From Candidatus Curtissbacteria bacterium RIFCSPLOWO2_02_41_11 (GTDB lineage Bacteria; Patescibacteriota; Microgenomatia; Curtissbacterales; GWA2-41-24), in the NCBI GenBank assembly GCA_001775055.1, contig MFBU01000014.1:120535-184534 (forward strand): 64,000 nt of DNA. Direction: 5' to 3'. The position numbers and the translations under genes are program-made. How positions within the stretch are numbered: position 1 is the first letter of the stretch; each line of letters starts with the position of its first letter. The notes beneath the pieces were generated by a model. That model worked only from the letters and a program-made list of their open reading frames with translations. It did not search any database and had not been told where the DNA came from. This document shows, one piece after another, positions 16,121 to 64,000 of the stretch.

Positions 16121-17134
16121 ATGGCGGCATCAAAAGGCTATAAAATCGCCACTTTAGGTTCTCACTCTGCTCTCCAAATCCTAAAAGGCGCAAAAGACGA
16201 AGGTTTTAAGACAATTTGTATCGTCACGCCTGATCGCCACCATCTCTACAGCCGATTTGCCTTCATCAATAAAATTATTAAGATTCCGACTTTTGCCGAT
16301 TTTCCCAAAATCGAAAAACAATTAATTGCCGATAACGCAATCGTTATTCCTCATGGTTCTTTTGTAGCTTATTTAGGTCTTAGCGAAAATAAAAATATGA
16401 AGGTTCCCTATTTTGGCAATAAGCAAGTTTTGGATTGGGAATCAGACAGAATGAAGCAAAGGGATTGGCTAATAGAAGCCAGCGTGCCGGTACCAAAAAG
16501 ATTTAAAAGGCAAGAGAAAATCGACAGACCAGTGATTATTAAATCGTATGGAGCCTCAGGCGGCCATGGTTATTTCTTCGCAAAAAACCAAAAGGAATTT
16601 GCATCCCGAATCAAAAATTTTAAAGCGAAAGATTTTATTATCCAGGAATATGTCATCGGAGTACCACTTTATATCCATTATTTTTATTCACCTCTTAACA
16701 AAAAATTAGAAATACTTTCGATCGATAAACGCTATGAAACTAATGTTGACTCCTTAGGGCGAATTCCTTCGCAGAATCAGCAAGGTCTTGGCATTGAACC
16801 CTCATTTGTGGTTGTTGGCAATATTCCCCTAACACTTCGCGAGTCACTTCTTTCCGAAGCATTTGAAATGGGCGAAAGAGTTGTTGCAACTTCAAAAAAA
16901 ATAATGGATGGGGGAATCTGGGGGCCGTTTTGTCTTGAAACGATTATTACACCAGAGCAGAAGTTTTCGATTATTGAAATTTCCTGTCGAATTGTTGCCG
17001 GAACCAATTTATTTATCGACAGTTCTCCATATGCCTCTCTATACTATGAAAAACCTGTTTCAACCGGCAGAAGAATCGCCATGGAGATCAAAGAGGCTAT
17101 TAAAAGAAACAAACTTGCCAGGATCTTAAACTAA
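16121..17134 (+). CDS. purP: 5-formaminoimidazole-4-carboxamide ribonucleotide synthetase (archaeal-type, formate-dependent)
   Basis: IATLGSHSALQILKGAKDEGFKTICI, IPHGSFVAY, FGN..L.WESDR, ATP-grasp core and IHYFYSPL. Matches PurP of methanogens along its whole length (about 340 aa). Confidence 0.85.
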   Translation: MAASKGYKIATLGSHSALQILKGAKDEGFKTICIVTPDRHHLYSRFAFINKIIKIPTFADFPKIEKQLIADNAIVIPHGSFVAYLGLSENKNMKVPYFGNKQVLDWESDRMKQRDWLIEASVPVPKRFKRQEKIDRPVIIKSYGASGGHGYFFAKNQKEFASRIKNFKAKDFIIQEYVIGVPLYIHYFYSPLNKKLEILSIDKRYETNVDSLGRIPSQNQQGLGIEPSFVVVGNIPLTLRESLLSEAFEMGERVVATSKKIMDGGIWGPFCLETIITPEQKFSIIEISCRIVAGTNLFIDSSPYASLYYEKPVSTGRRIAMEIKEAIKRNKLARILN

Positions 17135-52132: not shown

Positions 52133-53005
52133 ATGAATGATTTGTTAACAGAACTAGGTCAGTTAATTAATAAAAAAAACTTGTCTCGTGGAGCAAAGAA
52201 AAGACTAAGAGTAGATTTAAATGCGATAAGTTTGCGTCTGGTTAAATTTGAATACGAAACTAGTGGAATAGTTGAGAATACTTTTGACGTCCCGGAAACA
52301 TTTAGACGAATGTACAAGCATCTCGATACTTATTCGAAGATTGCTAAAACATGGAGTTCTATATTATCTAATCTTCCTATAGATAAACAGACAAACATTT
52401 TAGATCTTTGTCCCGGCTACGCACCAAAAATTGAGTTAGCTTTATTTTATCTCGGATATAGAGGAACCGTTACCATAATTGATGAGGATAATACTTCAAT
52501 GAAGCAACTTGTCAAATTTATGGCACTATTTAACCCCCAATTCAAAATTGTAACCATGAAACGAGATTTATTTTCTCCTCTCAAAGAAAAATTTCATCTT
52601 GCCGTTGGCAACCATATAATTGATGATCTCATATTACATTACTTTGCTAAGAAGGCTGGAATTAATACTAATGAGTTCTATGAAAACGAGCAGGCTCTTG
52701 TCGACTTTTGGAAAAGGGTTCTTTTAAATAAAAACGAAAACCAAAAAGAAATTACTCAAAAAATATCCGACATATTTAAAACAATTATTGCAAACGGAGG
52801 TTATTTATGCTTGTCGCAATACAAGAGTTATATGGATAAAATGCTAGACTTAGAGAAGGAATTTTTATTCTCGAGAGCAGTTTTTACAAAAATAATCAAA
52901 AATTTAATGAGAAGCGAATTTATCAATTTAAACGTTAAAAATTACGAAGCGAAAAATCAATATTTTTCTGCTCATGATGTTGTAATTTTAAAAAAAACAA
53001 AATGA
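52133..53005 (+). CDS. hypothetical protein (weak Rossmann/SAM-methyltransferase-like pattern)
   Basis: ILDLCPGYAPK ... TIIDED ... LAVGNHIIDDL loosely resemble MTase motifs I, II and IV. Overlaps the next gene (ATGA). Confidence 0.3.
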   Translation: MNDLLTELGQLINKKNLSRGAKKRLRVDLNAISLRLVKFEYETSGIVENTFDVPETFRRMYKHLDTYSKIAKTWSSILSNLPIDKQTNILDLCPGYAPKIELALFYLGYRGTVTIIDEDNTSMKQLVKFMALFNPQFKIVTMKRDLFSPLKEKFHLAVGNHIIDDLILHYFAKKAGINTNEFYENEQALVDFWKRVLLNKNENQKEITQKISDIFKTIIANGGYLCLSQYKSYMDKMLDLEKEFLFSRAVFTKIIKNLMRSEFINLNVKNYEAKNQYFSAHDVVILKKTK

Positions 53006-54150
53006 TGGAAACACGAAGTATTCAGTCTCGAGATCTAGTCGATTTACGTGTAAAGCTTACCAACCTTGCTCGGAATATTAGAAGAACAACAATACCGGAT
53101 GACGTCGAGCTAATTTACCCACAATCATCAAGAGATGATACAGTTTTTTTTAAAGGATCAGTATTAAAGAGAAAAAGAATCGTTCTACTTGCCCCTGCAT
53201 GTGTTACTGCAACATGCACTATGTGCCCTTTACCAAACGAGGCTCTTGATCGAAAAACCAGGCCCATTTCGCCCGAGCAAATCATTCAACAGTTCGAATC
53301 ATCTTTTGAGGGAGAAAGGTCTCTCGATGACTACGAGCTAATAACTGTTTACAATAATGGAAATTTCTTTGCCGATTTAGAACTAGACCGGGCAGTTCGA
53401 AAGCACATTTACAAAAGAGTGGGCGAGAGCAAAGCATCAATACTTGTTGTGGAGTCACTGCCGCAATTCATTACGCCAGAAAAGGTTGAAGAAGCAAAAG
53501 AGCTTCTAGGGCAAAAAGAACTTGCGGTGGCTATCGGTTTACAGTCATCCAACGATTTAGTTCGAGAACTTGCTGTAAACTCAACATGCACAAAAGCTGC
53601 TTTCGAAAGAGCTGTGCGGTTGTTGGGGGAGAATGGATATAAACCGCTCACATTTCTTATGATCAAACCCCCATTTTTGACTGAAAAGGAGGGAATCGAG
53701 GATGCTGTAGGCTCCATAAAATATCTAGCAAGTTTGGGTATTGATGACCCTATATTATGCGCAACTCGAGTGGCACCGAACACTGTAGCAATGCTCCTTC
53801 GTGAGAAAGGGCTTTTTAATCCGCCATGGATTTGGTCAGTTGTTGAGGTTCTAAAAAAGAGTTCAACTGTTAGTCCTAGCAGTAGACCTCGAGTAGTGTT
53901 ATCAGAATTGAAGCCAGAAATTAACTTAGATTCCGCATGTCCTCAAAATTGCGATTTATGCAGTACTCGAATTATAGATTTGATAGATTCCTACAATAAA
54001 ACCGGTGACGTAAAAGTTTTTAGAGATGCAGATTGTGATTGTAGGGAAACTTATAAAGCGTATGTTGATTCTGTAGAAAAAGACATGGGGCGAGTTTCCC
54101 TTTTGGAGAGAGTCAGAGATTTTTTGGATGGTATATTAATAGAAAGTTGA
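53002..54150 (+). CDS. radical-SAM-like TIM-barrel enzyme with atypical CX4CX2C cluster motif
   Basis: LLAPACVTATCTMCPL (Cys-x4-Cys-x2-Cys). AIGLQSSNDLVRELAVNST...LTFLMIKPPFLTEKEGIEDAVGSIKYLASLGIDDP resembles the GxQS.ND...NR / downstream pattern of HemN/ELP3/TIGR01212-type radical SAM proteins. Additional Cys cluster CPQNCDLC...DCDC. Confidence 0.4.
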   Translation: MMETRSIQSRDLVDLRVKLTNLARNIRRTTIPDDVELIYPQSSRDDTVFFKGSVLKRKRIVLLAPACVTATCTMCPLPNEALDRKTRPISPEQIIQQFESSFEGERSLDDYELITVYNNGNFFADLELDRAVRKHIYKRVGESKASILVVESLPQFITPEKVEEAKELLGQKELAVAIGLQSSNDLVRELAVNSTCTKAAFERAVRLLGENGYKPLTFLMIKPPFLTEKEGIEDAVGSIKYLASLGIDDPILCATRVAPNTVAMLLREKGLFNPPWIWSVVEVLKKSSTVSPSSRPRVVLSELKPEINLDSACPQNCDLCSTRIIDLIDSYNKTGDVKVFRDADCDCRETYKAYVDSVEKDMGRVSLLERVRDFLDGILIES

Positions 54151-55922
54151 TTGAGATGCCAAAGACATATATCAACCATTGAAGACTTTTCACTGAAACC
54201 TATATATTTCATAAAATTTTTGAAGTAAGGATAAGTTTGCGATAATAATACGGGCTTTTCTAAGCTCTTATAAAATCCCACATTGAGTCTCCATAATTTG
54301 ATTGAAAATTCCAACTCTTCCGTAGGAGGTATCATTGCTCTACTGCGAAGTGAAACATAAGGCAGTAGATAAGGAACTCGGCAAATTTCACCGTCTGGTA
54401 AAGTTACCACTAGCCCAGAATCTTTTGAACCAATAATAAAGTCTCTTAAATCTACTACATCGATCAAATTGAAACTTTTTCCTGGTACGTACTTGCCCGT
54501 CTTTAAATCTTCGTGTAATAGCTTCAAGGTACTTTCTATCTTTATTCTCCGGGGTAATAGCGATAAAACCTTTCCTCCTGTATACCCGGTCGCAACATCA
54601 TCATCCACCAAAACATATGTTCCACTTGGGATATCTGAAATTTGCTTATCAACTAAGGGGTATCCAAGTCTACCAATTACAGCTCTTGGTTCTAGCTGTC
54701 CGTCACAGATATCAAAAAGCCTGGATACATATAATCTGTACCCACCATTTGTACAAACATCCATGTTTATTACTTTTTTAGATTTGTTGAGTACGTTGAT
54801 AAAATTTTGTTGTGATTTTAGATTTACGACAACTATTGAGTCTTTCGAAAAAATGGCTTGCAAATAGTAGACGAAATCATTCAAAAAACCTCTTTTTGCT
54901 TCTAGAACTTTTTGTTCACCATGGGATTTTGATAGTTTTTCAAGGGCCCAAAGGCCATCATTTCTTACAGCGTAAATTTTTTTTAAGGAGTCGTCACTTT
55001 TATAGAAGTTTTGGAAACTTATTTTTTTTCTCAATTCGCTTGAGGAAATACTTGGCTTCGTCCTAGATTGAGATGTAAAAATAATGTTTTTGGGTTTTGC
55101 TATTGGAACTTCGCGTGCAACATCCTCAAGTTTACTTTCGTAGCCCTCTCTTTTTACACAAACGCAACTGCCTTTATCTATAAATGCTCTCGAAAAAACA
55201 GCATTATCACTACCGAAAACATAAACAACTTCAATTTTTAGTCCCAAATGAAATTGAAGATAACCCTCTAGTCTTAATATTGCATCGGTATAAGTTATCG
55301 GCACCTTGTTATATCGCGCTTCCCATGTGTCAATCATCAACCAATCGCTGTCACGGATTGCTTTCTCGCAAAGATCTATTCGCGAAGACGAATCAAGGTT
55401 TAATGAATCTGTGTATTTATTCCATACATATTCATCATGTGATGGTGATATATAACCGCCAACAACGGTTTTATTTAATTTCTCAACCTCTAATTTTGCG
55501 AGTTTCATCATTTCGATATGCCCCGTGTGAACGGGCGAGAATCCACCGGTAGAAAACAAGACAACTGGGTGAAAACGCTTGTCTTTTTTATGCCGCTGCA
55601 AATTATCCGAAATTTTCTGAAAAGGGGTGCATAACCAATTATGGAAATCTAATTTAGTAAGCGATCCTGGTTCAAGTCCATCATCAAAAAATCCCGCTTC
55701 AATTACCGATTTTATGCTTTTATAAGCAAAATAAGTTTTTGAAAGAAATGGGTCTCGTAATATTTTCCACGCAAGCCTGAGATCGTTTATTTCGTACTTA
55801 TTTTCTTTTTTTAACCTTAGATAAGCAAGATCCAATTTAGAAGCAACATCAGTTCTTTTTACCCCAAACAACTTCCAGAGGTCTTCATTATTTTTTATTT
55901 TTAAATACATTAGTTCTCCCAA
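54051..55922 (-). CDS. fusion protein: NMN/NaMN adenylyltransferase-like nucleotidyltransferase domain plus C-terminal type-I phosphoribosyltransferase (PRPP-binding) domain
   Basis: VVLFSTGGFSPVHTGHIEMM (the (H/T)xGH nucleotidyltransferase motif). ISPSHDEYV and WLMIDTWEA parallel eukaryotic/archaeal NMNAT blocks (ISPVGDAYKK, WVEVDTWES). C-terminal YVLVDDDVATGYTGGKV is the PRPP-binding motif of type I PRTases/PRPP synthetase. Confidence 0.5.
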   Translation of the reverse strand: MGELMYLKIKNNEDLWKLFGVKRTDVASKLDLAYLRLKKENKYEINDLRLAWKILRDPFLSKTYFAYKSIKSVIEAGFFDDGLEPGSLTKLDFHNWLCTPFQKISDNLQRHKKDKRFHPVVLFSTGGFSPVHTGHIEMMKLAKLEVEKLNKTVVGGYISPSHDEYVWNKYTDSLNLDSSSRIDLCEKAIRDSDWLMIDTWEARYNKVPITYTDAILRLEGYLQFHLGLKIEVVYVFGSDNAVFSRAFIDKGSCVCVKREGYESKLEDVAREVPIAKPKNIIFTSQSRTKPSISSSELRKKISFQNFYKSDDSLKKIYAVRNDGLWALEKLSKSHGEQKVLEAKRGFLNDFVYYLQAIFSKDSIVVVNLKSQQNFINVLNKSKKVINMDVCTNGGYRLYVSRLFDICDGQLEPRAVIGRLGYPLVDKQISDIPSGTYVLVDDDVATGYTGGKVLSLLPRRIKIESTLKLLHEDLKTGKYVPGKSFNLIDVVDLRDFIIGSKDSGLVVTLPDGEICRVPYLLPYVSLRSRAMIPPTEELEFSIKLWRLNVGFYKSLEKPVLLSQTYPYFKNFMKYIGFSEKSSMVDICLWHLNQLSINIPSKKSLTLSKRETRPMSFSTESTYAL

Positions 55923-56872
55923 CCCCCTGGAACAAACCTCTTGTAGATATCGAAATGGACAGAAGGCGATTTGCCCAAATATTTATGCCTGTTGTATTGA
56001 TGTATTTTTTCTAAACGCTTAGATAACTTTTCAAATTGTTTCTTCGACTTTGCGTTTAGTTTTTTAGAAAATTCTATCTTTTCTTTTCGAGTAAATGTTA
56101 GGTACGTGATATATAATTCCACAAACTCATATGTTGTTCCAAATACTTCTTCATCTGTTCTTCCATCAAACATATCACCACTTGGTTTTATATTGATAAT
56201 TTCCTCAGGAATATTTAAGATTTTTGCAACTCGACACACCTCACTTTTATGAATATCTGAAATAATTTGTAAGTCTACCATCCCATCTGAGGCTTTGCCA
56301 AAATACCCTAGATAAGCTCCTTCATCACGATTTGTAGTTCCACAGACTACTGCAGGAGAATTTGCCTGATTTAAAAGGCTAGTAATATAATAGAGAGTCG
56401 GCGTTTTTATATAAGCCGCTAACTGCCCGGCTGCCCAGTTTTTGCCTTTGAGATTAATTGACTTATCTATTGTGTTTTTAAGAACTGTGTGGCTCTTTGT
56501 TAAATCAACAACAATCTTTTTTGAATTGAAATACTTCGCAATCTCCTCTCCTCTTTTTGAAGCACCTTTTTGATTGGTTGCCGCTAATGGAGAAAAAACA
56601 GGCATCAAGATTGCATAAATATTTTTAATAGGTGAATTTTTGTGACGCGAGGCATTATGAACTATTCCCAAAACTACGGCAGAGTCAACGCCTCCGCTTA
56701 CAGCAACAACACAAGACTTTAGTTTAAAATCACTCATGTATCGATTCAGCAACATCGATTTATTTTTAATATAAAGCTGTGGATTAAAATCTCTTTTTGC
56801 ACGAATAATAGTAAGGACATCAAGTAATCCTTGCTCCAAAGTTTTTCCTGTTTGGGGATTATTAATTCTCAT
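55910..56872 (-). CDS. nadE: NH3-dependent NAD+ synthetase-like PP-loop amidotransferase
   Basis: SCVVAVSGGVDSAVV (SGGxDS PP-loop). GTTNRDEGAYLGYFGKASDGMVDLQIISD parallels NadE GTDHAAE.ITGFFTKYGDGGTDINPL. C-terminal TTYEFVELY parallels VTYDNIDDY. Confidence 0.65.
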   Translation of the reverse strand: MRINNPQTGKTLEQGLLDVLTIIRAKRDFNPQLYIKNKSMLLNRYMSDFKLKSCVVAVSGGVDSAVVLGIVHNASRHKNSPIKNIYAILMPVFSPLAATNQKGASKRGEEIAKYFNSKKIVVDLTKSHTVLKNTIDKSINLKGKNWAAGQLAAYIKTPTLYYITSLLNQANSPAVVCGTTNRDEGAYLGYFGKASDGMVDLQIISDIHKSEVCRVAKILNIPEEIINIKPSGDMFDGRTDEEVFGTTYEFVELYITYLTFTRKEKIEFSKKLNAKSKKQFEKLSKRLEKIHQYNRHKYLGKSPSVHFDIYKRFVPGGWEN

Positions 56873-56916: not shown

Positions 56917-57855
56917 TTATCCTGAGGTTCTGACATATCCATACCCTCCACCCTCTGAAGACCTACGAGGCGGACGAGGGGTAGGCGGATTATAAGCAGG
57001 AGATGAGGATGCAGAACTTGACGATCTTCTACTTCGACTAGGGCTGGTCACCTCTTCCTCCTCTGCTACTTCTTCTTTTTGCAGTGCCGCGATCAGGTCT
57101 ATAGCACCCTTATGAACTTCAACAATTGATACCAAAGACTCTGTACCGTCCCTGGCACTTTTCAGTGGAATTGTGATCGAGTTATTAACTGGGTCTTTAT
57201 CGATATTTGCAAAATCTGGTTGAAATTTGCTATCTTCCAGTTGTTTGGGCACATTAATTTTATCTATCCCTTTTTTAGACCCAACTACTATTTTATACTG
57301 ATTCTTTTTGCCACGTGTGAACACAAACACAATGTCTTCTTCCGGATCAAGTTCCTTTCCATTTTTATCTTCAAAAGAAAACGGTATTCTGGCAATTTGC
57401 GGTTTTAAACCCTCTCGTATCAAATTTCTTTCTGCAATTCCATTTGTAAGTAAATCAACGTTAATCGAATGAAGTTCGAAAGGGTTTTGGGATTTACTTT
57501 CGAAAGCTTGTCGGAGTTTTTCGCGAAGTTCTATAAGTTCTTCATCGTTGGTTAATTCTAGCGCAGATGTAATTCTAAAAAAAAATGCTTCATCTCCATT
57601 CTCAATAGAGTCGGCAAGTGCCTTTTTTACTTTTTCTCTTTCTTCTCCCAAGCGTCTCTCGTTAATCCGAATCTGGCCATCAACAATCATAATTGGTGTG
57701 TCGGATTCTAGCTCTACTATTTCTGTATAAATTAAACCAGTTAAGAATCTTGGCCCCATCGAAGCCAACGGAATTCCCTCAGTAGGTTGGTCAGTTCCAA
57801 GGGGACTATCTGTTACTTGATCTGGGTGTTCTGATTGTTCAGATGGTCTTGGCAC
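56917..57855 (-). CDS. hypothetical protein with Ser/Arg/Pro-rich low-complexity C-terminus
   Basis: 312 aa. C-terminal SPSRSRRSSSSASSSPAYNPPTPRPPRRSSEGGGYGY. No motif recognised. Confidence 0.35.
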   Translation of the reverse strand: MPRPSEQSEHPDQVTDSPLGTDQPTEGIPLASMGPRFLTGLIYTEIVELESDTPIMIVDGQIRINERRLGEEREKVKKALADSIENGDEAFFFRITSALELTNDEELIELREKLRQAFESKSQNPFELHSINVDLLTNGIAERNLIREGLKPQIARIPFSFEDKNGKELDPEEDIVFVFTRGKKNQYKIVVGSKKGIDKINVPKQLEDSKFQPDFANIDKDPVNNSITIPLKSARDGTESLVSIVEVHKGAIDLIAALQKEEVAEEEEVTSPSRSRRSSSSASSSPAYNPPTPRPPRRSSEGGGYGYVRTSG

Positions 57856-57895: not shown

Positions 57896-59362
57896 TTAAC
57901 TTATCTGCCAGTCGTGTTGCCATTGTTCAACTTGGACGCCCTTCTTTGCAGCTCTTCCAACCCACTCTGGAGGTCTTGGATTGTTTTTTGACTCGCCTAG
58001 TACATCTTCTACTCCGGACGCTTTGATTAAATCCAAAACTATTTCTTGATCTTCTCTATACATTCCTGCCAAATATTCTTGATAAACTGCCTCCATGAAT
58101 AAATCGTGCCAGTTATCGTTGGTTTTAACCTGCCCACTTCTGAATAACTCGTCAACATCTATAAGGGTCGTTTGGGCAGCTTTTATGCTATCAAGAATCC
58201 TTAATAAATTACGTCGAGTGTAAACGTAAGAACCTCCTTTGATGTCCTTTTCTGATCCAATTTTGCCAAGAGACGCTAAGTTTGAAAGATCACCTTGAAA
58301 AGCGGCTAACCATTTAATAACGGCATCCACGTTTGGTATGTTTTCAAGATCTCTGTACTCTGTTCTTACGTCTTTTTCTCCCTTATAACGCCTGTTCTGC
58401 CAAACTATATCGGGTTGTTCACCTTTGATTAAAAATCTCAAAAACTCTTCATATTCCTTAGTGGTTAATCCTTCAACTATTCTATCTTGCAGTCTGTTTC
58501 TCCTTGCCTCGGATTCTTCAAACCTGCCTCCACCGATGCCAAAAGGATTTTGAGCTGCTACATACCAATACCTGCTATCAAGACCAATAACCCCAGGTAC
58601 AATTCCACCATTGTCAATTATTGATTGCTCCTCAGGCGTTAAAGGTCTTATAATTTCTCCTTCATGTTCGACAATTCTTAATTGAGCCATTCTTTCAATT
58701 GCTGAGTTTTCCCGCTCAATAACATTACCCGGTGCTAAATTTGGTTCGTCAGCTCCATAAACGCTGCCATACATCATAGATCCTGCGAGTGTTCCATTTT
58801 GCCAGCGCCATTGGATAGTATCATCGAGACCATCAATCCCAAGAGCAGCGGCAATTTTTTTACTTTCAAGGAGCGTCAGAGGTCTTGATTGTTTCTCTGC
58901 AGACTCGACAATTTCTTTGAGGCTCTCAGGTAAGTCTGGATCAGCTAGGAGTTCTTTAAAACGAACTGCAAGTTTGGCATCAGCGGGTACAAATCTTCCA
59001 ATTGTGTCACCAGGATCGGAATCCTTAGAATAATTATGTCTCAGATAACTCCTGTTAGTAAGCGCACAAATCACCTCAGCTGCATATGATTTCGAAACAC
59101 CTGTAGGGCCTTCGTTTCTAGATGCAATCCCTCCTTTGAGCCGAACTGCCATATCTCTTATCAAAAGAACAGTTGGTGTATCCCAACAGGTAGAGGCTTT
59201 TAATAGCTCGATTTTCGGGATGAAACGTCTAGCATTAACATCTTCAGGCAATGGTAACCTGTCTAAAACAACATCCAGAACCCTTACTTGGTTTTCTTTA
59301 GGATATTCCTGAATGACTGGGACTTCCCCTAATTTTCGTTCAATGTCTCCCTTTTCTGTCAT
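57896..59362 (-). CDS. AAA+ ATPase, MoxR/dynein-related (AAA_5-like) clade
   Basis: Walker A GPTGVSKS. Walker B-like VYGADEPNLAP. Start is placed at Met 59362 (MTEKGD...), 1 nt after the upstream stop. The tracked ORF extends further in a non-coding frame. Confidence 0.55.
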   Translation of the reverse strand: MTEKGDIERKLGEVPVIQEYPKENQVRVLDVVLDRLPLPEDVNARRFIPKIELLKASTCWDTPTVLLIRDMAVRLKGGIASRNEGPTGVSKSYAAEVICALTNRSYLRHNYSKDSDPGDTIGRFVPADAKLAVRFKELLADPDLPESLKEIVESAEKQSRPLTLLESKKIAAALGIDGLDDTIQWRWQNGTLAGSMMYGSVYGADEPNLAPGNVIERENSAIERMAQLRIVEHEGEIIRPLTPEEQSIIDNGGIVPGVIGLDSRYWYVAAQNPFGIGGGRFEESEARRNRLQDRIVEGLTTKEYEEFLRFLIKGEQPDIVWQNRRYKGEKDVRTEYRDLENIPNVDAVIKWLAAFQGDLSNLASLGKIGSEKDIKGGSYVYTRRNLLRILDSIKAAQTTLIDVDELFRSGQVKTNDNWHDLFMEAVYQEYLAGMYREDQEIVLDLIKASGVEDVLGESKNNPRPPEWVGRAAKKGVQVEQWQHDWQIS

Positions 59363-59823: not shown

Positions 59824-62148
59824 TTAACGATAGAAAAACTCTGGATGCTTTACCATATACTCCATGATTATAGCAAAAGCCCTGCCGAATTCTTCGGCGT
59901 CTGTGTATGAGTTTCCAACCTCATCAAAATTAGCACCAAGAGCTCTCGCAATATCTCTTTTTACTCTTTCATGGAGTTCAGGATAAGAATCATTAACGAA
60001 ATCGGTTCCTGGACCGATACCAAAGCCTGCTGTTACTACGCTTCTGTCAGACCTTACTTCACGAAGCAAATCGAGTACTTCTTCCTGCGATGTGCTGGTT
60101 GGCTCACCATCTGTTAAGGTAATAAAATAATTGTTGTCCAGTGGTAGACTGGACATTCTTCTTTTTAAATATCTGTAACTTGCTTGTGTAGCCTCATATG
60201 TAGGTGTACCACTTCCTCCACAATCGGATAGCATTTTTCCAAGTACATCTCTATCTTGATTTGTTAGTTTCTTTTTTCCAAAATCCTTATACAATCTGAC
60301 TTTTCCTTTGAAACTGTCTCTAAAACCTATAATTGCAAATTCAAGACCGAATCTATTCATTACTTCAGAAAAGGCTGCGACCATCTTAAACGTTTCAAAA
60401 ATTTTACCTTCCATTGATGGACTAAGATCAACTAAAAGTAGAAATCTATAGCTTTTTTCGGTGGGTCTACCTTTCGCTTCAAAAGCATTATATTTTCTGG
60501 GATCTGCCTCCATTTGCATTGCTTTTCTCATTGATGGCCTCAAACCGGTTGAGGAATAGCGAATACTCGGTTCTTCCGTCGGTTCAAAAAGTGTTTTAAA
60601 TTCTTTTTCTAGTCTTCTTCTGACAGCATCTACATCAGGCATAGATAGGACAGATTGGTAGGGATCCTCTTGAATTGTTTCGAGTGCTTCTTTTCGCCTT
60701 TTTTCCATATCTCTTGCAACTCTTTCTGCCTCCTTTTGTTGCTCCTCTTTTGCTTGACTAGTTTTTTCTCCTACTCGCCTTTCTTTGTGAGATTCTTGGT
60801 GTCGAGGATCATTTATATGCCCTTTTAGCTTTTCGTTTGCTTCGTCTTCTACATCCTCCAGATCTTCTCTTGCTCTCTGCTCGAGACTGTCTTTCGACTC
60901 ACTCGAAAGATTATCGTAAGCATCTTCTATAGCTTTCTTTGTTTTGTCAGAAAAGTCGTCCCAAGGAATTCTCATGTCAGATCCATTCTCACTTCGACCA
61001 TCCTCTTCTCTGCCTTGAGCACTCGATCCTTGTGTTCCCTCAGCAGGTTCAGCACTTTCTTCTTGCACATTCATACCTTGTTCACTACCAGAAGAATCTC
61101 CTGACTGTTCTCCTTGCGTTTGTTGCGTTTGACCATTAGCCCCAGATTGACCGTCTTCTCCTGTCTGTTTTTCTTGATCTTTCTCTGCTCTTTCTTGCCC
61201 TTGAGGTTCACCAGACTGCTTGGGACCTTTTTGGCCTTGTTGTCGATTAGCCTCTTTTACTTTTTCTCTAATTTCGTCTTGTACATCTTTAGGTAGCGCA
61301 TCAAACGGTATAACCATAATTTGTCCTCCTCCATGCTGGCCCTGGCCACCACCTTGCTGATCTTGAGAGAGCATGTCTTTTATCATATTGACCATATTCT
61401 GGTCTTTTAAGGATTCCTCTACTAATTGTTTATATTTGGGCCAGATCTTTTCTATGAAGACTTCAGTGCTTGCGATAGCTTCTCTCTGAACATCAAATTC
61501 ATCCTTAGTTGTGGGGGTTATTCGGTAAAACTCATCAAATGCGTCGATCGTTTCCCTAATTGTTCTTCTGACATCCTCATCTGGGATTTCTTCCAAAAAA
61601 TGTTCTTTGTCTTCTTCAGTCTTGAGCCCATCTGTAAACTCTCTTTTGTACCAATGATGTATTATTTCTCCTCCCCATTGCATGAATTTAGGTACGTACC
61701 CTAATGAATTCCGGGCGTCTGCTAGCATGCCTTTGTAGTCTAAGCCTCCTCCAGGACTCAGGTCGCGTTCTATATACGCTCTGATCCAGTCTCTGGAGCC
61801 AGGCCTCATACTCATACCGGCTTGGTTTGCTCTGGGATCCTCACAAGCGTTGAAACCAAAGGAAAAACCTGGTTCTTGCCATAAATCAGTAACGTGTTCC
61901 GCTCTTGATACGAGTCTATGATTACCTTCATGAGCAGCAATACCTTTGACAACATCCTCGGGTTCTGTCGCCAAGTCCTTAGCATCCATATTTACGTGAT
62001 TCTTAACAAAATCCCAATGCCAACCACTTCCCCATGGACCAACACCAACTGTCATGCCATAATCTCCACCCATAAAAAGTGCAATTACATCTGCCTTTCT
62101 TCTTATAGTTTCGTCTATCTGGGGTTGTCTTTCGGTTTGATCATTCAT
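59824..62148 (-). CDS. large VWA-domain protein with N-terminal HExxH (putative zincin-like) region and acidic/Gln-Gly-rich linker (CbbO/NorD/DUF2201-like MoxR partner)
   Basis: C-terminal MIDAS LLLVDLSPSMEG ... T ... D (von Willebrand A). N-terminal AAHEGNHRL (HExxH). Central (Q/G/E)-rich low-complexity segment. 774 aa. Confidence 0.6.
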   Translation of the reverse strand: MNDQTERQPQIDETIRRKADVIALFMGGDYGMTVGVGPWGSGWHWDFVKNHVNMDAKDLATEPEDVVKGIAAHEGNHRLVSRAEHVTDLWQEPGFSFGFNACEDPRANQAGMSMRPGSRDWIRAYIERDLSPGGGLDYKGMLADARNSLGYVPKFMQWGGEIIHHWYKREFTDGLKTEEDKEHFLEEIPDEDVRRTIRETIDAFDEFYRITPTTKDEFDVQREAIASTEVFIEKIWPKYKQLVEESLKDQNMVNMIKDMLSQDQQGGGQGQHGGGQIMVIPFDALPKDVQDEIREKVKEANRQQGQKGPKQSGEPQGQERAEKDQEKQTGEDGQSGANGQTQQTQGEQSGDSSGSEQGMNVQEESAEPAEGTQGSSAQGREEDGRSENGSDMRIPWDDFSDKTKKAIEDAYDNLSSESKDSLEQRAREDLEDVEDEANEKLKGHINDPRHQESHKERRVGEKTSQAKEEQQKEAERVARDMEKRRKEALETIQEDPYQSVLSMPDVDAVRRRLEKEFKTLFEPTEEPSIRYSSTGLRPSMRKAMQMEADPRKYNAFEAKGRPTEKSYRFLLLVDLSPSMEGKIFETFKMVAAFSEVMNRFGLEFAIIGFRDSFKGKVRLYKDFGKKKLTNQDRDVLGKMLSDCGGSGTPTYEATQASYRYLKRRMSSLPLDNNYFITLTDGEPTSTSQEEVLDLLREVRSDRSVVTAGFGIGPGTDFVNDSYPELHERVKRDIARALGANFDEVGNSYTDAEEFGRAFAIIMEYMVKHPEFFYR

Positions 62149-62936
62149 TGGTATTTATTACATATATTAAATGGCTTGTTGTAAGAGAGCATATTTTCGA
62201 TGATAATATCGCTGGCTTCTCTTAGATTTTTATTTTTAATTAACCCTGAAAAAATATTGATCCCTGGTGAAATAAAGAGATTACTAACTGCGTAGGTTGG
62301 TCTATGTTTTCGAACATCTTCAGTGACTAATTCTAAGCAAATATATCCGAGCCTGGGAAAGCTGTTCATCACTTTTTTAGCAGTTTCAATAATTTGCGGG
62401 CTTATGCTGTCAGTTATATTTTCATAATCGTAATTACCTTCGATCAAAACCATCTTTCCATTTTTTACTATTCTCTTAAGGTCGACTCTTTTTGAATAAA
62501 TTTTTAGAGGTATTTGCAATGGATCATTCGAATTTATTCTTTTAATGTTCTCTTGTTTTATTAGATCGTTTAATTTTGTAACACCATCTACCTTTAAATA
62601 AACTTTCTTCTCTAAAAGAGCGTTGTAAAAATGGTTATTTGTGATAAAAACTCGTATTTTATCGTGATTACTGTAACTGTTTACCACCACCTTTATTTTA
62701 GAACCTTTTAATATTTCAGTCCAAAAGTGTCTACGTGATAGTACGATTCCCCACATATAAGGTATTGAAGGTGTGAAATCTCCGTAAAATTCATAGCTGT
62801 TGCCCTTAAAGTTTATTGAATATATTGCTGTTCCTTTAAGTCTTGTGAATGTGGCGCCCTTATTTAATAACTCTTTTGCGATCTTTTTCGACGCAGTAGG
62901 AAGGTCAAAATCAACAATTCCTTGTTTTGTTTTCAT
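62145..62936 (-). CDS. hypothetical protein, possibly degenerate ATP-grasp-like
   Basis: 263 aa, translationally coupled (ATGA) on both sides. Weak VYLKVDG / GYICLEL / LFISPG resemblance to ATP-grasp elements. Confidence 0.3.
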   Translation of the reverse strand: MKTKQGIVDFDLPTASKKIAKELLNKGATFTRLKGTAIYSINFKGNSYEFYGDFTPSIPYMWGIVLSRRHFWTEILKGSKIKVVVNSYSNHDKIRVFITNNHFYNALLEKKVYLKVDGVTKLNDLIKQENIKRINSNDPLQIPLKIYSKRVDLKRIVKNGKMVLIEGNYDYENITDSISPQIIETAKKVMNSFPRLGYICLELVTEDVRKHRPTYAVSNLFISPGINIFSGLIKNKNLREASDIIIENMLSYNKPFNICNKYQ

Positions 62937-63925
62937 ATTACGGGAGGAAAAATAACATCTACTATTGCGTTTGCAACATCTCTTGACTTTCCTTTCTCGG
63001 GCATCATATGCAAAGACAATCCAGGAGCGCTATTTAATTCACAGACCTTGTAGTCATCCATATTTTTGGAAATATCACTGCATAGGAGATCAATACCCAC
63101 AAAGGGCACATTTAGAGCATTTAATATTGCTTTTGCAAGTTTTTTGTAAGAAAGATGCATACTATCTGTAACATCGTAACAGTTTCCTCCAGTTGAAACA
63201 TTTGAATTCTTTCGCAGAAATACTTTTTGTCCTTTTGTAGGAGTCGCAGAAAAGCTTAAACCCTGTTTCTTAAGATGATTTTTAGAAATATCGTCTATTG
63301 CAATTTTGCATAAACAAGTATTTCTAGGATTCATCCGTCTATAATTTTCTACTTTAATTAGTTTCCTAATTGTGCTTTTTCCGTCACCCGTTATATTCGC
63401 TGGGGTCCTTTCTACTGCGGCGATGAAACCGCTTTGAGTAACAAAAATACGATATTCCTTTGCTTCAAACTGTTTTTCGATGAGGAAATAAGCCGACTGG
63501 TTGTATTTCGATAGGAAAGTAACAATTGCAATTTTGAGATCCCTAACACTGTTAATATCCATAATCACGTTTTCACCATGAGAACTAATAGTTGGTTTCA
63601 CTACAACAGGAAAGCCAATTTCTCTTGCGTAGGTAAGTGCTGTTTTTTTGTAGTCTCCGTCAAAAATCTCGCCAGTATTAACCTTGAACCCTTTACTGCT
63701 TAGAAACTTTTTTGCATAGTATTTATCATCAATAATGATTCCTTTAGTAAAGGGAACCAAATTAGTGTAGATGTCATACAATACTTCCTTGTGTCCCTTG
63801 TAGCTTGCTTGGACGAAGTTTGTTTTTCTAATTGGTTGCAATGCCACGCCTCTTTTTCTCATTGCTTCCAGCAAGAGCCTCGAATTAAATGAATGTTTTT
63901 TAAATAAAACATCAATACTATCCAT
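62933..63925 (-). CDS. ATP-grasp ligase (cyanophycin-synthetase-N-terminal / RimK-like)
   Basis: FPVVVKPTISSHGENVIM (central ATP-binding). RKNSNVSTGGNCYDVTDSMH parallels the CphA NLSTGG.A.DVTD.VH motif. VCELNSAPGL (E-x-N...PG catalytic loop). Confidence 0.6.
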   Translation of the reverse strand: MDSIDVLFKKHSFNSRLLLEAMRKRGVALQPIRKTNFVQASYKGHKEVLYDIYTNLVPFTKGIIIDDKYYAKKFLSSKGFKVNTGEIFDGDYKKTALTYAREIGFPVVVKPTISSHGENVIMDINSVRDLKIAIVTFLSKYNQSAYFLIEKQFEAKEYRIFVTQSGFIAAVERTPANITGDGKSTIRKLIKVENYRRMNPRNTCLCKIAIDDISKNHLKKQGLSFSATPTKGQKVFLRKNSNVSTGGNCYDVTDSMHLSYKKLAKAILNALNVPFVGIDLLCSDISKNMDDYKVCELNSAPGLSLHMMPEKGKSRDVANAIVDVIFPPVI

Positions 63926-64000
63926 AATTTTCCTAAAACGTACGCTTGATTATAGTATAGTCAGGGTTCAATTCAAGAATACATAAAAAATACCCGAAGA

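What the first reader, a model, noticed from the sequence alone, without database searches (positions are those of the whole stretch)
62145..63925. Tandem ATP-grasp genes heading the accessory operon
The 330-aa protein has a full ATP-grasp signature, including a cyanophycin-synthetase-like NVSTGGNCYDVTDSMH block, implying amino-acid or peptide ligation to a carboxylate. The following 263-aa protein is coupled by ATGA and is faintly ATP-grasp-like. ATP-grasp ligases are not normally operonic with NAD-pathway enzymes. They are common in peptide-tagging and modification, and in conflict or biosynthetic systems.
Basis: inference. Interest (0 to 1): 0.5.

Follow-up and report, generated by a model that had tools for sequence, protein, structure and literature searches.

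The report
Active ATP-grasp ligase plus dead paralog
Two adjacent genes in a Candidatus Curtissbacteria (CPR) genome encode a working amide-bond ligase and a crippled copy of it, and across related uncultured bacteria this pair always sits in a conserved, apparently undescribed gene cluster, usually alongside NAD-supply genes and often a midasin-like ATPase machine, whose function is unknown.

Summary
Both ORFs are real, lie on the minus strand, and are coupled by ATGA overlaps.

- **ORF-A (330 aa):** a stand-alone ATP-grasp ligase of the cyanophycin-synthetase G-domain/GshF clade. All ATP, Mg2+ and acyl-phosphate residues are intact. It is not a cyanophycin synthetase, GshF, RimK or Ddl.
- **ORF-B (263 aa):** a paralog of ORF-A (hhalign 99.9%, E 4e-33). 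It has lost the 65-residue ATP-binding lid and most catalytic residues, so it is a pseudoenzyme.
- **Partnership:** ORF-B accompanies ORF-A in all 14 independent related loci sampled.
- **Cluster:** the pair belongs to a conserved Patescibacteria cluster. A 290-aa methyltransferase-like protein was found in 12 of the 14 loci, and radical SAM enzymes are frequent. About ten loci also carry an HExxH-VWA protein, and most of those that extend far enough also carry a midasin-like AAA+ ATPase and a 312-aa protein with a conserved disordered C-terminal tail.
- **NAD link:** it is conserved, not incidental. Clear NAD genes lie next to the pair in 10 of 13 informative loci, as two non-homologous gene sets.

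My best guess (confidence about 0.4) is an A/B heteromer that ligates an amine to a peptide C-terminal carboxylate, probably the tail of the 312-aa protein. The substrate and the role of NAD are unresolved. I found no published description.

The parts
62933..63925 (-). ORF-A, 330 aa. Active stand-alone ATP-grasp ligase of the CphA G-domain/GshF clade.
   Evidence: Aligned to TeCphA1 (7wac), these residues are kept: K68=K220, K110=K261, H116=H267, R159=R309, R173=R323, N242=N394, S244=S396, D279=D431, E296=E450, G302=G456. Two are not: E215->I63 and R458->S304. Residue roles are from PMC9427784. The kept residues are invariant across the family.
62145..62936 (-). ORF-B, 263 aa. Lid-less, catalytically degenerate paralog of ORF-A (pseudo-ATP-grasp).
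   Evidence: BLASTP E 4e-9. hhalign 99.9%, E 4.4e-33, with ORF-A residues 87-151 absent. Key-residue table. phmmer over 1.84e9 representatives gives 52 hits, including ORF-A family members. AF2 pLDDT 80, then Foldseek top 17 hits all CphA2/CphA1/GshF, E 1e-10.
63949..63976 (-). Promoter-like site TTGAAT-16-TATAAT, 24 nt upstream of the ORF-A start codon.
   Evidence: 10 of 12 matches. The same site is seen in L013. This is a consensus match only; the count in the region is not above chance.
59824..62148 (-). 774-aa protein: N-terminal HExxH (HEGNH) domain, acidic/Gln-rich linker, C-terminal VWA domain with an intact MIDAS site.
   Evidence: Pfam VWA 1.1e-5. HExxH and the DxSxS/T/D MIDAS positions are invariant in 9 orthologs. 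The same architecture is described for a jumbo-phage MoxR partner in PMC7824862.
59364..59822 (-). 152-aa conserved protein of unknown fold, always between the VWA and AAA+ genes.
   Evidence: No Pfam, PHROGs or NCBIfam match.
57896..59362 (-). 488-aa AAA+ ATPase of the MoxR/dynein-midasin clade. It is the most conserved protein of the cluster.
   Evidence: Walker A GPTGVSKS and Walker B DE are invariant. The family profile hits the midasin AAA module at E 3.9e-26, against 0.26 for CbbQ. Start codon taken from the called gene in L013.
56917..57855 (-). Protein Y, 312 aa. Structured core (about residues 42-270) plus a conserved disordered tail YNPPxPRxPRRSSEGGGYGYxRxSG-COOH. Candidate ligase substrate or scaffold.
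55910..56872 (-). NH3-dependent NAD+ synthetase (NadE).
   Evidence: Pfam NAD_synthase 1.1e-31. TIGR00552 105.9 bits against a cut-off of 63.65.
54051..55910 (-). NMN/NaMN adenylyltransferase fused to a C-terminal domain that looks like a type I phosphoribosyltransferase. The PRTase call rests only on the motif VLVDDDVATGYT.
   Evidence: TIGR00482 2e-15. Eukaryote-type NMNAT structures match at E 3.5e-11. The C-terminal PRTase assignment is inferred from sequence and was not tested.
53002..54150 (+). Radical SAM protein of the RaSEA (TIGR01210) type. It is convergent with the operon and overlaps its 3' end by 100 nt.
   Evidence: 194 bits against a cut-off of 212. It is conserved next to the cluster in L001, L003, L008/L010, L012 and L018.
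52133..53005 (+). p290, a 290-aa methyltransferase-like (Rossmann) protein found in 12 of the 14 related loci sampled. In five loci (L006, L007, L009, L017, L019) it lies immediately upstream of the ATP-grasp gene.
   Evidence: No match to solved-structure sequences. Only weak MTase Pfam hints, in 1 of 6 members.

Best explanation
ORF-A is an active ATP-grasp amide ligase. It would phosphorylate a carboxylate with ATP to form an acyl-phosphate, then couple it to an amine. ORF-B is its catalytically dead, lid-less paralog and obligate partner.

ORF-B most likely forms a heteromer with ORF-A through the core-core dimer interface that CphA G domains use. In that role it would supply a substrate-binding surface rather than catalysis.

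Both characterised relatives (the CphA G domain and the GshF ATP-grasp module) activate the C-terminal alpha-carboxylate of a peptide. I therefore propose that the pair adds an amino acid or other amine to a peptide C-terminus. The best candidate is the conserved disordered tail of the co-encoded protein Y (...PRRSSEGGGYGYVRTSG-COOH).

This would be one step in a multi-enzyme protein-tail maturation system. The other parts would be p290 (methyltransferase-like), radical SAM enzymes, an HExxH peptidase-VWA protein and a midasin-like AAA+ ATPase that binds or remodels Y.

The adjacent NAD-supply genes indicate that the process consumes or is tied to NAD. How is not known.

**Shown:** enzyme class, intact active site, pseudoenzyme status of ORF-B, conserved partnership and gene cluster.
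**Inferred:** heteromer formation, the peptide-tail substrate, and the roles of the other parts.
For: **Active site**
- It is complete and of CphA type, including the P-loop His116.

**ORF-B**
- It is homologous to ORF-A but lacks ORF-A residues 87-151 (K110, H116, E150), the NVSTGG loop, R173, and the E296 and N298 equivalents.
- It is present in all 14 independent loci that carry an ORF-A ortholog.
- It evolves faster than ORF-A (48-50% against 65-67% identity in the same genome pairs).

**Partner protomer contributes to substrate binding in CphA1**
- In TeCphA1, Glu215 of the partner protomer in the Gcore-Gcore dimer binds the primer (PMC9427784).

**Pointers to a peptide substrate**
- In L018 a radical SAM-SPASM domain is fused to the ATP-grasp. 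The homologous rSAM lies immediately upstream in L011 and L025.
- An invariant HExxH domain sits in the VWA partner.
- In L019, NadE is fused to a 2OG-Fe(II) oxygenase domain.

**Y tail**
- It is conserved in 17 homologs and in divergent variants, ending ...RxSG in most.
- Loci that lack Y (L018, L019) carry a small ORF rich in S/E/G/R/Y directly after the pseudo-grasp gene.

**Operon structure**
- Eight genes run on one strand with overlaps or gaps of at most 44 nt.
Against: - No direct evidence ties ORF-A to the Y tail.
- The last residue of the tail is not invariant: Gly in most, but also Arg, His or Asn.
- The L018 small ORF is not significantly similar to Y (E 0.028 in a five-sequence search). 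The resemblance is compositional.
- The ATP-grasp/pseudo-grasp/p290 trio occurs without Y, the AAA+ or the large VWA protein in L018 and L019, yet with NAD genes. This fits a small-molecule NAD-linked role at least as well.
- R458 of CphA1, which holds the incoming amino acid's alpha-carboxylate, is Ser304 here. The nucleophile therefore may not be a free alpha-amino acid.
- The ORF-B model was built with ORF-A relatives in its alignment, which biases it towards that fold.
- Heteromer formation was not tested.
Confidence: 0.4

Rival explanations
1. Small-molecule ligase in pyridine-nucleotide metabolism. ORF-A/B, with p290 and the RaSEA-like radical SAM, would act on an NAD-pathway intermediate or a related metabolite. 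One version: the ligase couples an amino acid to a carboxylate, and the radical SAM then trims it to an amide. That would parallel ArcS/RaSEA, which uses lysine as a nitrogen donor. Alternatively they build a modified cofactor.
For: - The trio ATP-grasp/pseudo-grasp/p290 stays with NAD genes even where Y, the AAA+ and the large VWA protein are absent (L018, L019).
- Clear NAD genes adjoin the pair in 10 of 13 informative loci, as two non-homologous sets: NadE+NMNAT-PRT or NadR+PnuC.
- The relative GshF ligates small molecules.
- The RaSEA-type radical SAM scores 194 bits.
- In L019, NadE is fused to a dioxygenase domain.
Against: - L011, L024 and L025 lack clear NAD genes within 10 kb. Only weak Nudix and isochorismatase hints appear there.
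- L006 and L007 lack the radical SAM.
- SPASM radical SAM fusions and an HExxH peptidase are typical of peptide substrates.
- No chemistry in known NAD pathways needs such a ligase.
- NadE already performs the amidation step.
Confidence: 0.25
2. NAD-centred conflict system (defence, or an epibiont's tool against its host's NAD-depleting immunity). The NAD module would replenish NAD as phage NARP pathways do. The MoxR-VWA-peptidase machine with the ATP-grasp pair would modify or activate a protein effector or target.
For: - PnuC+NadR is exactly the two-gene phage NARP3 module (PMC13464706).
- MoxR-vWA pairs, including vWA fused to a metallopeptidase, recur in conflict and phage contexts (PMC7824862).
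- The distribution is patchy and rare: 4 of about 185,000 species genomes in a pattern-limited scan.
- Accessory genes vary between loci.
Against: - None of the ten cluster proteins matches a PADLOC model.
- No toxin, nuclease, TIR, Sir2 or ART domain was recognised.
- No phage homolog of the AAA+ was found by tblastn.
- The window neighbours are housekeeping genes: aminoacyl-tRNA synthetases, RecJ, CCA-adding enzyme.
- No mobile-element genes were noticed next to the cluster in the window.
Confidence: 0.15
3. Synthesis of cyanophycin, another poly-amino-acid, or a cell-envelope peptide polymer, as in CphA or in Firmicute teichuronopeptide-type clusters.
For: - The best sequence matches are CphA1/CphA2 G domains.
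- Remote relatives (35% identity or less) in Oceanobacillus and in an uncultured bacterium lie among cell-wall polymer genes, with several other ATP-grasp genes: TupA, YheCD, LytR, TagF-like.
Against: - ORF-A has no N domain and no Mur-ligase M domain. It scores 237 bits against a cut-off of 850.
- The primer-Arg binder E215 and the Asp alpha-carboxylate binder R458 are replaced by Ile and Ser.
- No cyanophycinase or cell-wall polymer gene lies in the operon or its orthologs.
Confidence: 0.05
4. Ordinary housekeeping ligase (D-Ala-D-Ala ligase, glutathione synthetase, or RimK acting on ribosomal protein S6) that happens to lie next to NAD genes.
For: Weak hits to RimK, Ddl and LysX models.
Against: - All these hits are far below family cut-offs: RimK family 50 against 143, Ddl 22.8 against 243, GshAB 195 against 425.
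- There is no GshA domain.
- The gene neighbourhood is conserved and specific.
- ORF-A orthologs are rare: 134 clusters in 5.8 billion, in a word-seeded search.
Confidence: 0.03

Closest known systems
Cyanophycin synthetase 1/2 G domain (CphA1 7lgm, 7wac, 7lg5; CphA2 7ta5, 8fxh)
   Same: Closest solved relatives (E 5.6e-41). ORF-A shares the Gcore/Glid/G-omega layout. It also shares the ATP-binding lysines, the P-loop His, the Arg that stabilises the acyl-phosphate, the N-x-S-T-G-G large loop, and the Mg2+ ligands. By homology, the expected chemistry is an acyl-phosphate on a peptide C-terminal carboxylate.
   Different: ORF-A is a 330-aa stand-alone protein with no N (primer-anchoring) domain and no M (Mur-ligase) domain. 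The residues that bind the cyanophycin primer Arg (E215) and the alpha-carboxylate of the incoming Asp (R458) are Ile and Ser. It is paired with a dead paralog rather than forming homodimers. There is no cyanophycin context.
GshF / GshAB C-terminal ATP-grasp module (3ln7, 3ln6)
   Same: Same clade (E 8.6e-39; NCBIfam PRK02471 E 2.2e-57 over its C-terminal third). GshF adds an amino acid (Gly) to a C-terminal carboxylate (of gamma-Glu-Cys).
   Different: ORF-A has no fused GshA domain. Its P-loop carries His, as in CphA, not the Tyr/Phe of GshF (PMC9427784).
MoxR AAA+ / vWA chaperone pairs, especially the jumbo-phage pair with vWA fused to an N-terminal metallopeptidase (PMC7824862), and eukaryotic midasin (Rea1)
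   Same: The downstream genes encode an AAA+ of this clade and a partner with HExxH, an acidic linker and a MIDAS-VWA domain. The AAA+ profile matches the midasin AAA module at E 3.9e-26. An acidic linker followed by MIDAS mirrors the midasin tail.
   Different: Here the pair is embedded with an ATP-grasp/pseudo-grasp pair, p290, two extra conserved subunits (152 aa and Y) and NAD genes. No phage homolog was found by tblastn. Midasin itself has six AAA modules in one chain.
Scaffold-peptide and RiPP-type pathways that use ligases and radical SAM-SPASM maturases (PQQ, mycofactocin, PEARL/pearlin pathways, pheganomycin PGM1). Recalled from knowledge, not tested here.
   Same: The cluster combines a peptide-directed ligase, radical SAM-SPASM enzymes, a peptidase and a conserved C-terminal peptide segment. 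In the PEARL precedent, an amino acid is added to a scaffold C-terminus, tailored, then cleaved off.
   Different: The putative scaffold is a 312-aa protein, not a short peptide. The ligase is of the CphA-G type, not LanB-like or graspetide-type (Foldseek to PsnB only E 0.028). No RRE domain was recognised and no product is known.
Phage NAD+ reconstitution pathway NARP3 (PnuC + NadR; PMC13464706)
   Same: The related loci L006, L007, L017 and L018 flank the cluster with exactly PnuC + NadR.
   Different: The window itself uses NadE plus an NMNAT-PRT-like fusion instead. The genes are chromosomal in CPR bacteria, not phage-borne.

Membership tests
ATP-grasp superfamily (ORF-A) | Two ATP-phosphate-binding lysines, a flexible phosphate-binding lid loop, and acidic/Asn Mg2+ ligands in the C-domain | tested here: met
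   K68, K110, loop S115-H116-G117, D279, E296 and N298 align to K220, K261, H267, D431, E450 and N452 of TeCphA1 (roles). They are invariant in 8-13 orthologs. Pfam RimK scores 38.7, above the cut-off of 21.
ATP-grasp superfamily (ORF-B) | Homology to and fold of an ATP-grasp enzyme | tested here: met
   hhalign 99.9%, E 4.4e-33. Foldseek top 17 hits are all CphA/GshF, E 1e-10, TM 0.62 (the model's alignment included ORF-A relatives).
ATP-grasp superfamily (ORF-B) | Catalytic competence: lid with Lys and P-loop, Mg2+ ligands, substrate loop | tested here: not met
   ORF-A residues 87-151 are deleted. The NVSTGG loop is absent. R173->E, E296->N/S and N298->F/L, depending on which alignment is used. 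Full-length orthologs have K110->R/Y and N298->Y/F.
Cyanophycin synthetase (CphA1) | Three-domain architecture N + G + M (about 870-930 aa), scoring above the TIGR02068 cut-off | tested here: not met
   Only profile positions 164-473 of 862 are matched. The score is 237 bits against a cut-off of 850. The protein is 330 aa.
Cyanophycin synthetase (CphA1) | Residues that recognise the beta-Asp-Arg primer and the incoming Asp (E215, R458) | tested here: not met
   I63 and S304 occupy these positions. S304 is invariant in the family.
GshF bifunctional glutathione synthetase | N-terminal GshA (gamma-Glu-Cys ligase) domain, and Tyr/Phe in the P-loop | tested here: not met
   The match covers only profile positions 436-753 of 756, at 195 bits against a cut-off of 425. 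The P-loop residue is His116.
   Scores against cut-offs: RimK family 50.4/143.4, LysX 34.2/275.6, MptN 29.3/350, Ddl 22.8/243, CofF 21.2/300.
MoxR-type AAA+ / VWA chaperone pair (downstream genes) | AAA+ with Walker A and B motifs, adjacent to a VWA protein with a complete MIDAS motif | tested here: met
   GPTGVSKS and DE are invariant. Midasin AAA matches at E 3.9e-26. DxSxS, T and D are invariant in 9 orthologs, and HExxH is also invariant. Pfam AAA_5 itself is only marginal (E 0.01-0.11).
Graspetide / RiPP ATP-grasp systems | MdnB/C- or PsnB-type ATP-grasp with a short precursor peptide gene | tested here: inconclusive
   The ORF-B model matches PsnB only at E 0.028. No short precursor gene was identified in the window, although Y carries a conserved tail. 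A 33-aa ORF precedes the radical SAM in L025 but was not examined further.
Known anti-phage defence systems (PADLOC-DB 2.0) | Any component matching a defence-system model | tested here: not met
   No hit at E <= 0.01 for any of the 10 cluster proteins.

The most novel reading that the evidence does not exclude
The cluster is a protein-scaffold biosynthetic or modification machine unique to CPR bacteria.

1. The A/B ligase appends an amino acid to the C-terminal tail of protein Y.
2. p290, radical SAM enzymes and, in some lineages, a 2OG oxygenase tailor it.
3. The HExxH-VWA protein and the midasin-like AAA+ process or release the product.

The product or modification would be chemically tied to NAD, for example a pyridine-nucleotide precursor or conjugate built on a protein scaffold. 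That would explain why two unrelated NAD-supply modules are attached to the system.
Probability: 0.12. Interest if true: 0.9.

Novelty: new variant of a known kind. Interest (0 to 1): 0.62.

Why it matters
- **Minimal genomes.** CPR/Patescibacteria genomes are very small, so a conserved 8-11-gene cluster is a large investment. Understanding it would reveal something specific about how these epibionts obtain or use NAD, or modify their proteins.
- **A natural experiment on cyanophycin synthetase.** The pair shows a CphA G domain working without the N and M domains, next to a lid-less pseudoenzyme partner. This bears on how that clade recognises its substrates.
- **Origin of midasin.** The adjacent AAA+ resembles eukaryotic midasin far more than bacterial CbbQ does (midasin E 3.9e-26, CbbQ E 0.26). 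Its partner carries an acidic linker followed by a MIDAS domain. This is of interest for the origin of midasin-type machines.
- **A possible new NAD-linked process.** The repeated coupling to two independent NAD-supply modules, one identical in make-up to phage NARP3, suggests an unknown NAD-dependent process.

Tried and rejected
- **Phage origin.** Megablast of 24 kb against 50,697 phage records found nothing. tblastn with ORF-A hit only about 30%-identical sequences in records labelled as Listeria and Enterococcus phages, which I take to be GshF-type genes of host origin; these records were not inspected. tblastn with the AAA+ found nothing.
- **ORF-B in family libraries.** No hit in Pfam, PHROGs or NCBIfam. 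Homology came only from pairwise and profile comparison.
- **p290.** No PDB sequence hit and only weak MTase hints.
- **p189.** This gene lies upstream of the ATP-grasp in L001, L003 and L015. It is not conserved in the source genome, so it is not a core part.
- **L018 140-aa ORF.** It is not significantly related to Y. I rejected homology and kept only the compositional resemblance.
- **PQQ-like E-x3-Y reading of the tail.** Rejected, because the E-to-Y spacing is not conserved across orthologs.
- **Tool limits.** The afdb50 fold library was unavailable. The genome and metagenome scans rely on short peptide patterns and returned only 4 and 9 loci, so prevalence figures are lower bounds.
- **Literature.** Searches for the combination ATP-grasp / vWA / MoxR / NAD / PnuC / Patescibacteria / cyanophycin found no description of this cluster.

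Full report
**1. Observation**

The two ORFs are real and lie on the minus strand. ORF-A is 62933..63925 (330 aa) and ORF-B is 62145..62936 (263 aa). The + strand reads tcat at 62933-62936 and at 62145-62148. So ORF-A/ORF-B and ORF-B/next gene are each joined by an ATGA stop/start overlap. The block NVSTGGNCYDVTDSMH is ORF-A residues 242-257.

The pair opens a run of eight minus-strand genes, 63925 to 54051, with overlaps or gaps of at most 44 nt. In the source contig an unrelated 220-aa ORF lies 140 bp upstream. A TTGAAT-16-TATAAT site sits 24 nt before the ORF-A start. This is a consensus match only.

The organism is Candidatus Curtissbacteria (CPR/Patescibacteria). P0005 and P0123 are 100%-identical GenBank proteins from that genome. 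The window is chromosomal, with aminoacyl-tRNA synthetases, RecJ and the CCA-adding enzyme nearby. It is not phage.

**2. ORF-A**

- Pfam RimK scores 38.7 bits against a cut-off of 21.
- NCBIfam cyanophycin synthetase gives E 2.9e-70, but only over profile positions 164-473 of 862, and at 237 bits against a cut-off of 850. GshAB matches over its C-terminal third only. RimK, LysX, MptN, CofF and Ddl are all far below their cut-offs.
- The best solved relatives are CphA1 (7lgm, E 5.6e-41; 7wac), CphA2 (7ta5, 8fxh) and GshAB (3ln7).

I mapped the 7wac alignment onto the residue roles established for TeCphA1 in PMC9427784.

| ORF-A | TeCphA1 | Role |
|---|---|---|
| K68 | K220 | beta-phosphate |
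| K110 | K261 | alpha-phosphate |
| H116 | H267 | P-loop His; CphA-type, where GshF has Tyr/Phe |
| R159 | R309 | carboxylate / acyl-phosphate |
| R173 | R323 | binds the beta-carboxyl of the incoming Asp |
| N242, S244 | N394, S396 | large loop |
| D279, E296 | D431, E450 | Mg2+ ligands |
| G302 | G456 | oxyanion |

All of these are kept and are invariant in the family.

Two specificity residues are not kept. E215, which binds the primer Arg from the partner protomer, is I63. R458, which binds the alpha-carboxylate of the incoming Asp, is S304.

ORF-A is therefore an active ligase of the CphA-G/GshF clade with a different substrate. It is not a cyanophycin synthetase, because it has no N or M domain.

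**3. ORF-B**

ORF-B has no family-library hit, but it is clearly a paralog of ORF-A.

- BLASTP gives 22% identity over 167 aa (E 4e-9), plus an N-terminal segment at E 8e-5.
- A profile of six ORF-B orthologs aligns to the ORF-A family at 99.9% probability, E 4.4e-33, over 249 columns. There is one gap, covering ORF-A residues 87-151. That is the lid carrying K110, H116 and E150.
- phmmer against 1.84 billion representatives finds only 52 proteins at E <= 1e-3. Among them are genuine ORF-A family members: P0016 at 4.8e-16, plus P0041 and P0067.
- Alignment to an ORF-A HMM shows two kinds of ORF-B. Short forms lack the lid. Full-length forms (about 310-330 aa) keep a degenerate lid with K110->R/Y, H116 variable, N242 variable and N298->Y/F.
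- An AlphaFold2 model (pLDDT 80, pTM 0.77) matches CphA2, CphA1 and GshF as its top 17 Foldseek hits (E 1e-10, TM 0.62). The caveat is that ORF-A relatives were in the model's alignment.

ORF-B is a pseudoenzyme. It is nonetheless retained in every locus examined, and it diverges faster than ORF-A (48-50% against 65-67% identity in the same genome pairs).

**4. Context**

I compared 14 independent loci carrying ORF-A orthologs at 43-67% identity.

*Found in every locus or nearly every locus*
- The ATP-grasp and the pseudo-grasp are present in all 14.
- p290 was found in 12 of the 14. It is the window ORF 52133-53005, methyltransferase-like by motif, with only weak Pfam support. It was not detected in L015 or L025, both of which reach a contig end. 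It lies immediately upstream of the ATP-grasp in L006, L007, L009, L017 and L019.

*In most loci*
- A large protein with an invariant HExxH, an acidic linker and a complete MIDAS-VWA domain.
- A 150-aa protein of unknown fold.
- A highly conserved AAA+ (58-76% identity). Its profile hits the midasin AAA module at E 3.9e-26, against 0.26 for CbbQ.
- Protein Y.

*NAD genes*
- They adjoin the pair in 10 of 13 informative loci.
- They come as two non-homologous sets. One is NadE plus an NMNAT-PRT-like fusion, usually with the RaSEA-like radical SAM. The other is NadR plus PnuC. L018 has both.

*Loci without the AAA+/VWA/Y module*
- L018 and L019 have the ATP-grasp trio and NAD genes, but no midasin-like AAA+, no large VWA protein and no Y within 10 kb.
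- The trio is therefore tied to NAD genes at least as tightly as to the AAA+/VWA module.

*Loci without clear NAD genes*
- L011, L024 and L025 have the AAA+/VWA module, or at least its start, and extra radical SAM genes. They have no clear NAD genes.
- Only weak Nudix and isochorismatase-like hints appear nearby.

*Informative fusions*
- L018 fuses a radical SAM-SPASM domain to the ATP-grasp. The homologous radical SAM lies immediately upstream in L011 and L025 (E 1e-41 and 1e-49).
- L019 fuses NadE to a 2OG-Fe(II) oxygenase domain.

*Family boundary*
- Remote homologs (35% identity or less) in Oceanobacillus and in an uncultured bacterium sit in cell-wall polymer clusters instead.
- This marks the edge of the CPR-type system.

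**5. Candidate substrate**

Protein Y (56917-57855) has a structured core with no recognisable fold. Its disordered C-terminal tail is conserved in 17 homologs: YxPPxPRxPRRSSE[SG]GGYGYxxVS[G, rarely R/H/N]. The tail ends ...RSG or ...TSG even in the divergent variants L011, L012 and L024.

L018 and L019 lack Y. Each carries a small ORF directly after the pseudo-grasp gene. One ends ...SSEGSRPGYSSN. The other consists of about 13 GEGGR repeats. This resemblance is compositional only.

**6. Mechanism**

Shown:
- ORF-A has everything needed to form an acyl-phosphate and an amide bond.
- ORF-B cannot bind ATP in the canonical way.
- The two genes are always together.

Inferred:
- They form a heteromer modelled on the CphA Gcore-Gcore dimer, in which the partner protomer contributes to substrate binding.
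- Both characterised relatives activate a peptide C-terminal alpha-carboxylate. The SPASM radical SAM fusion, the invariant HExxH domain and the oxygenase fusion all point to a peptide substrate.
- The most economical proposal is that A/B ligates an amine to the Y tail, within a tail-maturation system served by the VWA/AAA+ machine.

I put this at about 0.4.

The main rival, at 0.25, is a small-molecule role in pyridine-nucleotide metabolism. It is favoured by L018 and L019 and by the ArcS/RaSEA analogy.

A conflict-system reading, at 0.15, is compatible with either. It is suggested by the NARP3-like PnuC+NadR module and by phage MoxR/vWA-peptidase pairs. It has no positive support from PADLOC or from any recognised effector domain.

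**7. Novelty**

ORF-A alone is a new member of a known clade. Three further things appear to be undescribed in the literature I could search:
- the obligate pairing with a lid-less pseudo-paralog;
- the conserved CPR cluster with a midasin-like AAA+ and an HExxH-VWA protein;
- the repeated attachment of two different NAD-supply modules.

GenBank names a fragment of ORF-A 'UDP-N-acetylmuramyl tripeptide synthase', which is wrong.

I rate the finding a new variant of a known kind. Interest is 0.62, limited by the unknown substrate and the unknown role of NAD.

Noticed in passing
window 57896-59362 (-) and 59824-62148 (-): The AAA+ ATPase resembles the eukaryotic midasin (Rea1) AAA module far more than bacterial CbbQ (E 3.9e-26 against 0.26). 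Its partner has an acidic/Gln-rich linker followed by a MIDAS-VWA domain, like the midasin tail, plus an invariant HExxH domain. Together they look like a 'split proto-midasin' in a CPR bacterium.
   Followed up: partly
window 54051-54150; also L001 19861-19969 and L003 15738-15849: The 3' ends of the convergent NMNAT-PRT gene and the RaSEA-like radical SAM gene overlap by about 100-112 nt. The overlap is conserved in three lineages.
   Followed up: no
window 53002-54150 (+): A bacterial radical SAM protein scores 194 bits on the archaeal archaeosine RaSEA model (cut-off 212). It is translationally coupled to p290 by a 4-nt overlap at 53002-53005. No ArcS-like partner was seen.
   Followed up: partly
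window 54051-55910 (-): A eukaryote-type NMNAT domain (best PDB matches are NMNAT1/3-like, E 3.5e-11) is fused to a roughly 300-aa C-terminal region. That region carries a type I PRTase-like PRPP motif (VLVDDDVATGYT) and has no match to any solved structure. It may be an unusual pyridine phosphoribosyltransferase.
   Followed up: partly
L018 8837-10969; L019 14122-15891 (-): Two fusions occur in relatives: radical SAM-SPASM::ATP-grasp (710 aa) and NadE::2OG-Fe(II) oxygenase (589 aa). Both are confirmed by Pfam.
   Followed up: yes
L019 11834-12283; L018 11853-12275: Small ORFs lie directly after the pseudo-grasp gene in the two loci that lack protein Y. One is made of about 13 GEGGR repeats. 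The other ends ...SSEGSRPGYSSN, reminiscent of the Y tail. Whether they are real genes was not tested.
   Followed up: partly
L025 8734-8835: A called 33-aa ORF (MWNQMVKNNVLINILQNAVPVPHNITAINHTFY) lies just upstream of the SPASM radical SAM and ATP-grasp genes. It could be a precursor peptide or a chance ORF.
   Followed up: no
L006 1-4891: Six tandem paralogous ORFs of 265-288 aa lie upstream of the cluster. The one scanned (737-1534) has no Pfam match. A resolvase gene lies downstream at 16700.
   Followed up: no
window 62933-63925 (GenBank protein P0005): The deposited annotation of a fragment of ORF-A, 'UDP-N-acetylmuramyl tripeptide synthase', is a misannotation. The protein has no Mur-ligase domain.
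   Followed up: yes
L026 and L027 (remote ORF-A homologs, 35% identity or less): In Oceanobacillus and in an uncultured bacterium, stand-alone CphA-G-like ATP-grasp genes lie in cell-wall polymer clusters. Those clusters hold several other ATP-grasp genes (TupA, YheCD, acylphosphatase fusions), suggesting a separate envelope-peptide role for that branch.
   Followed up: no
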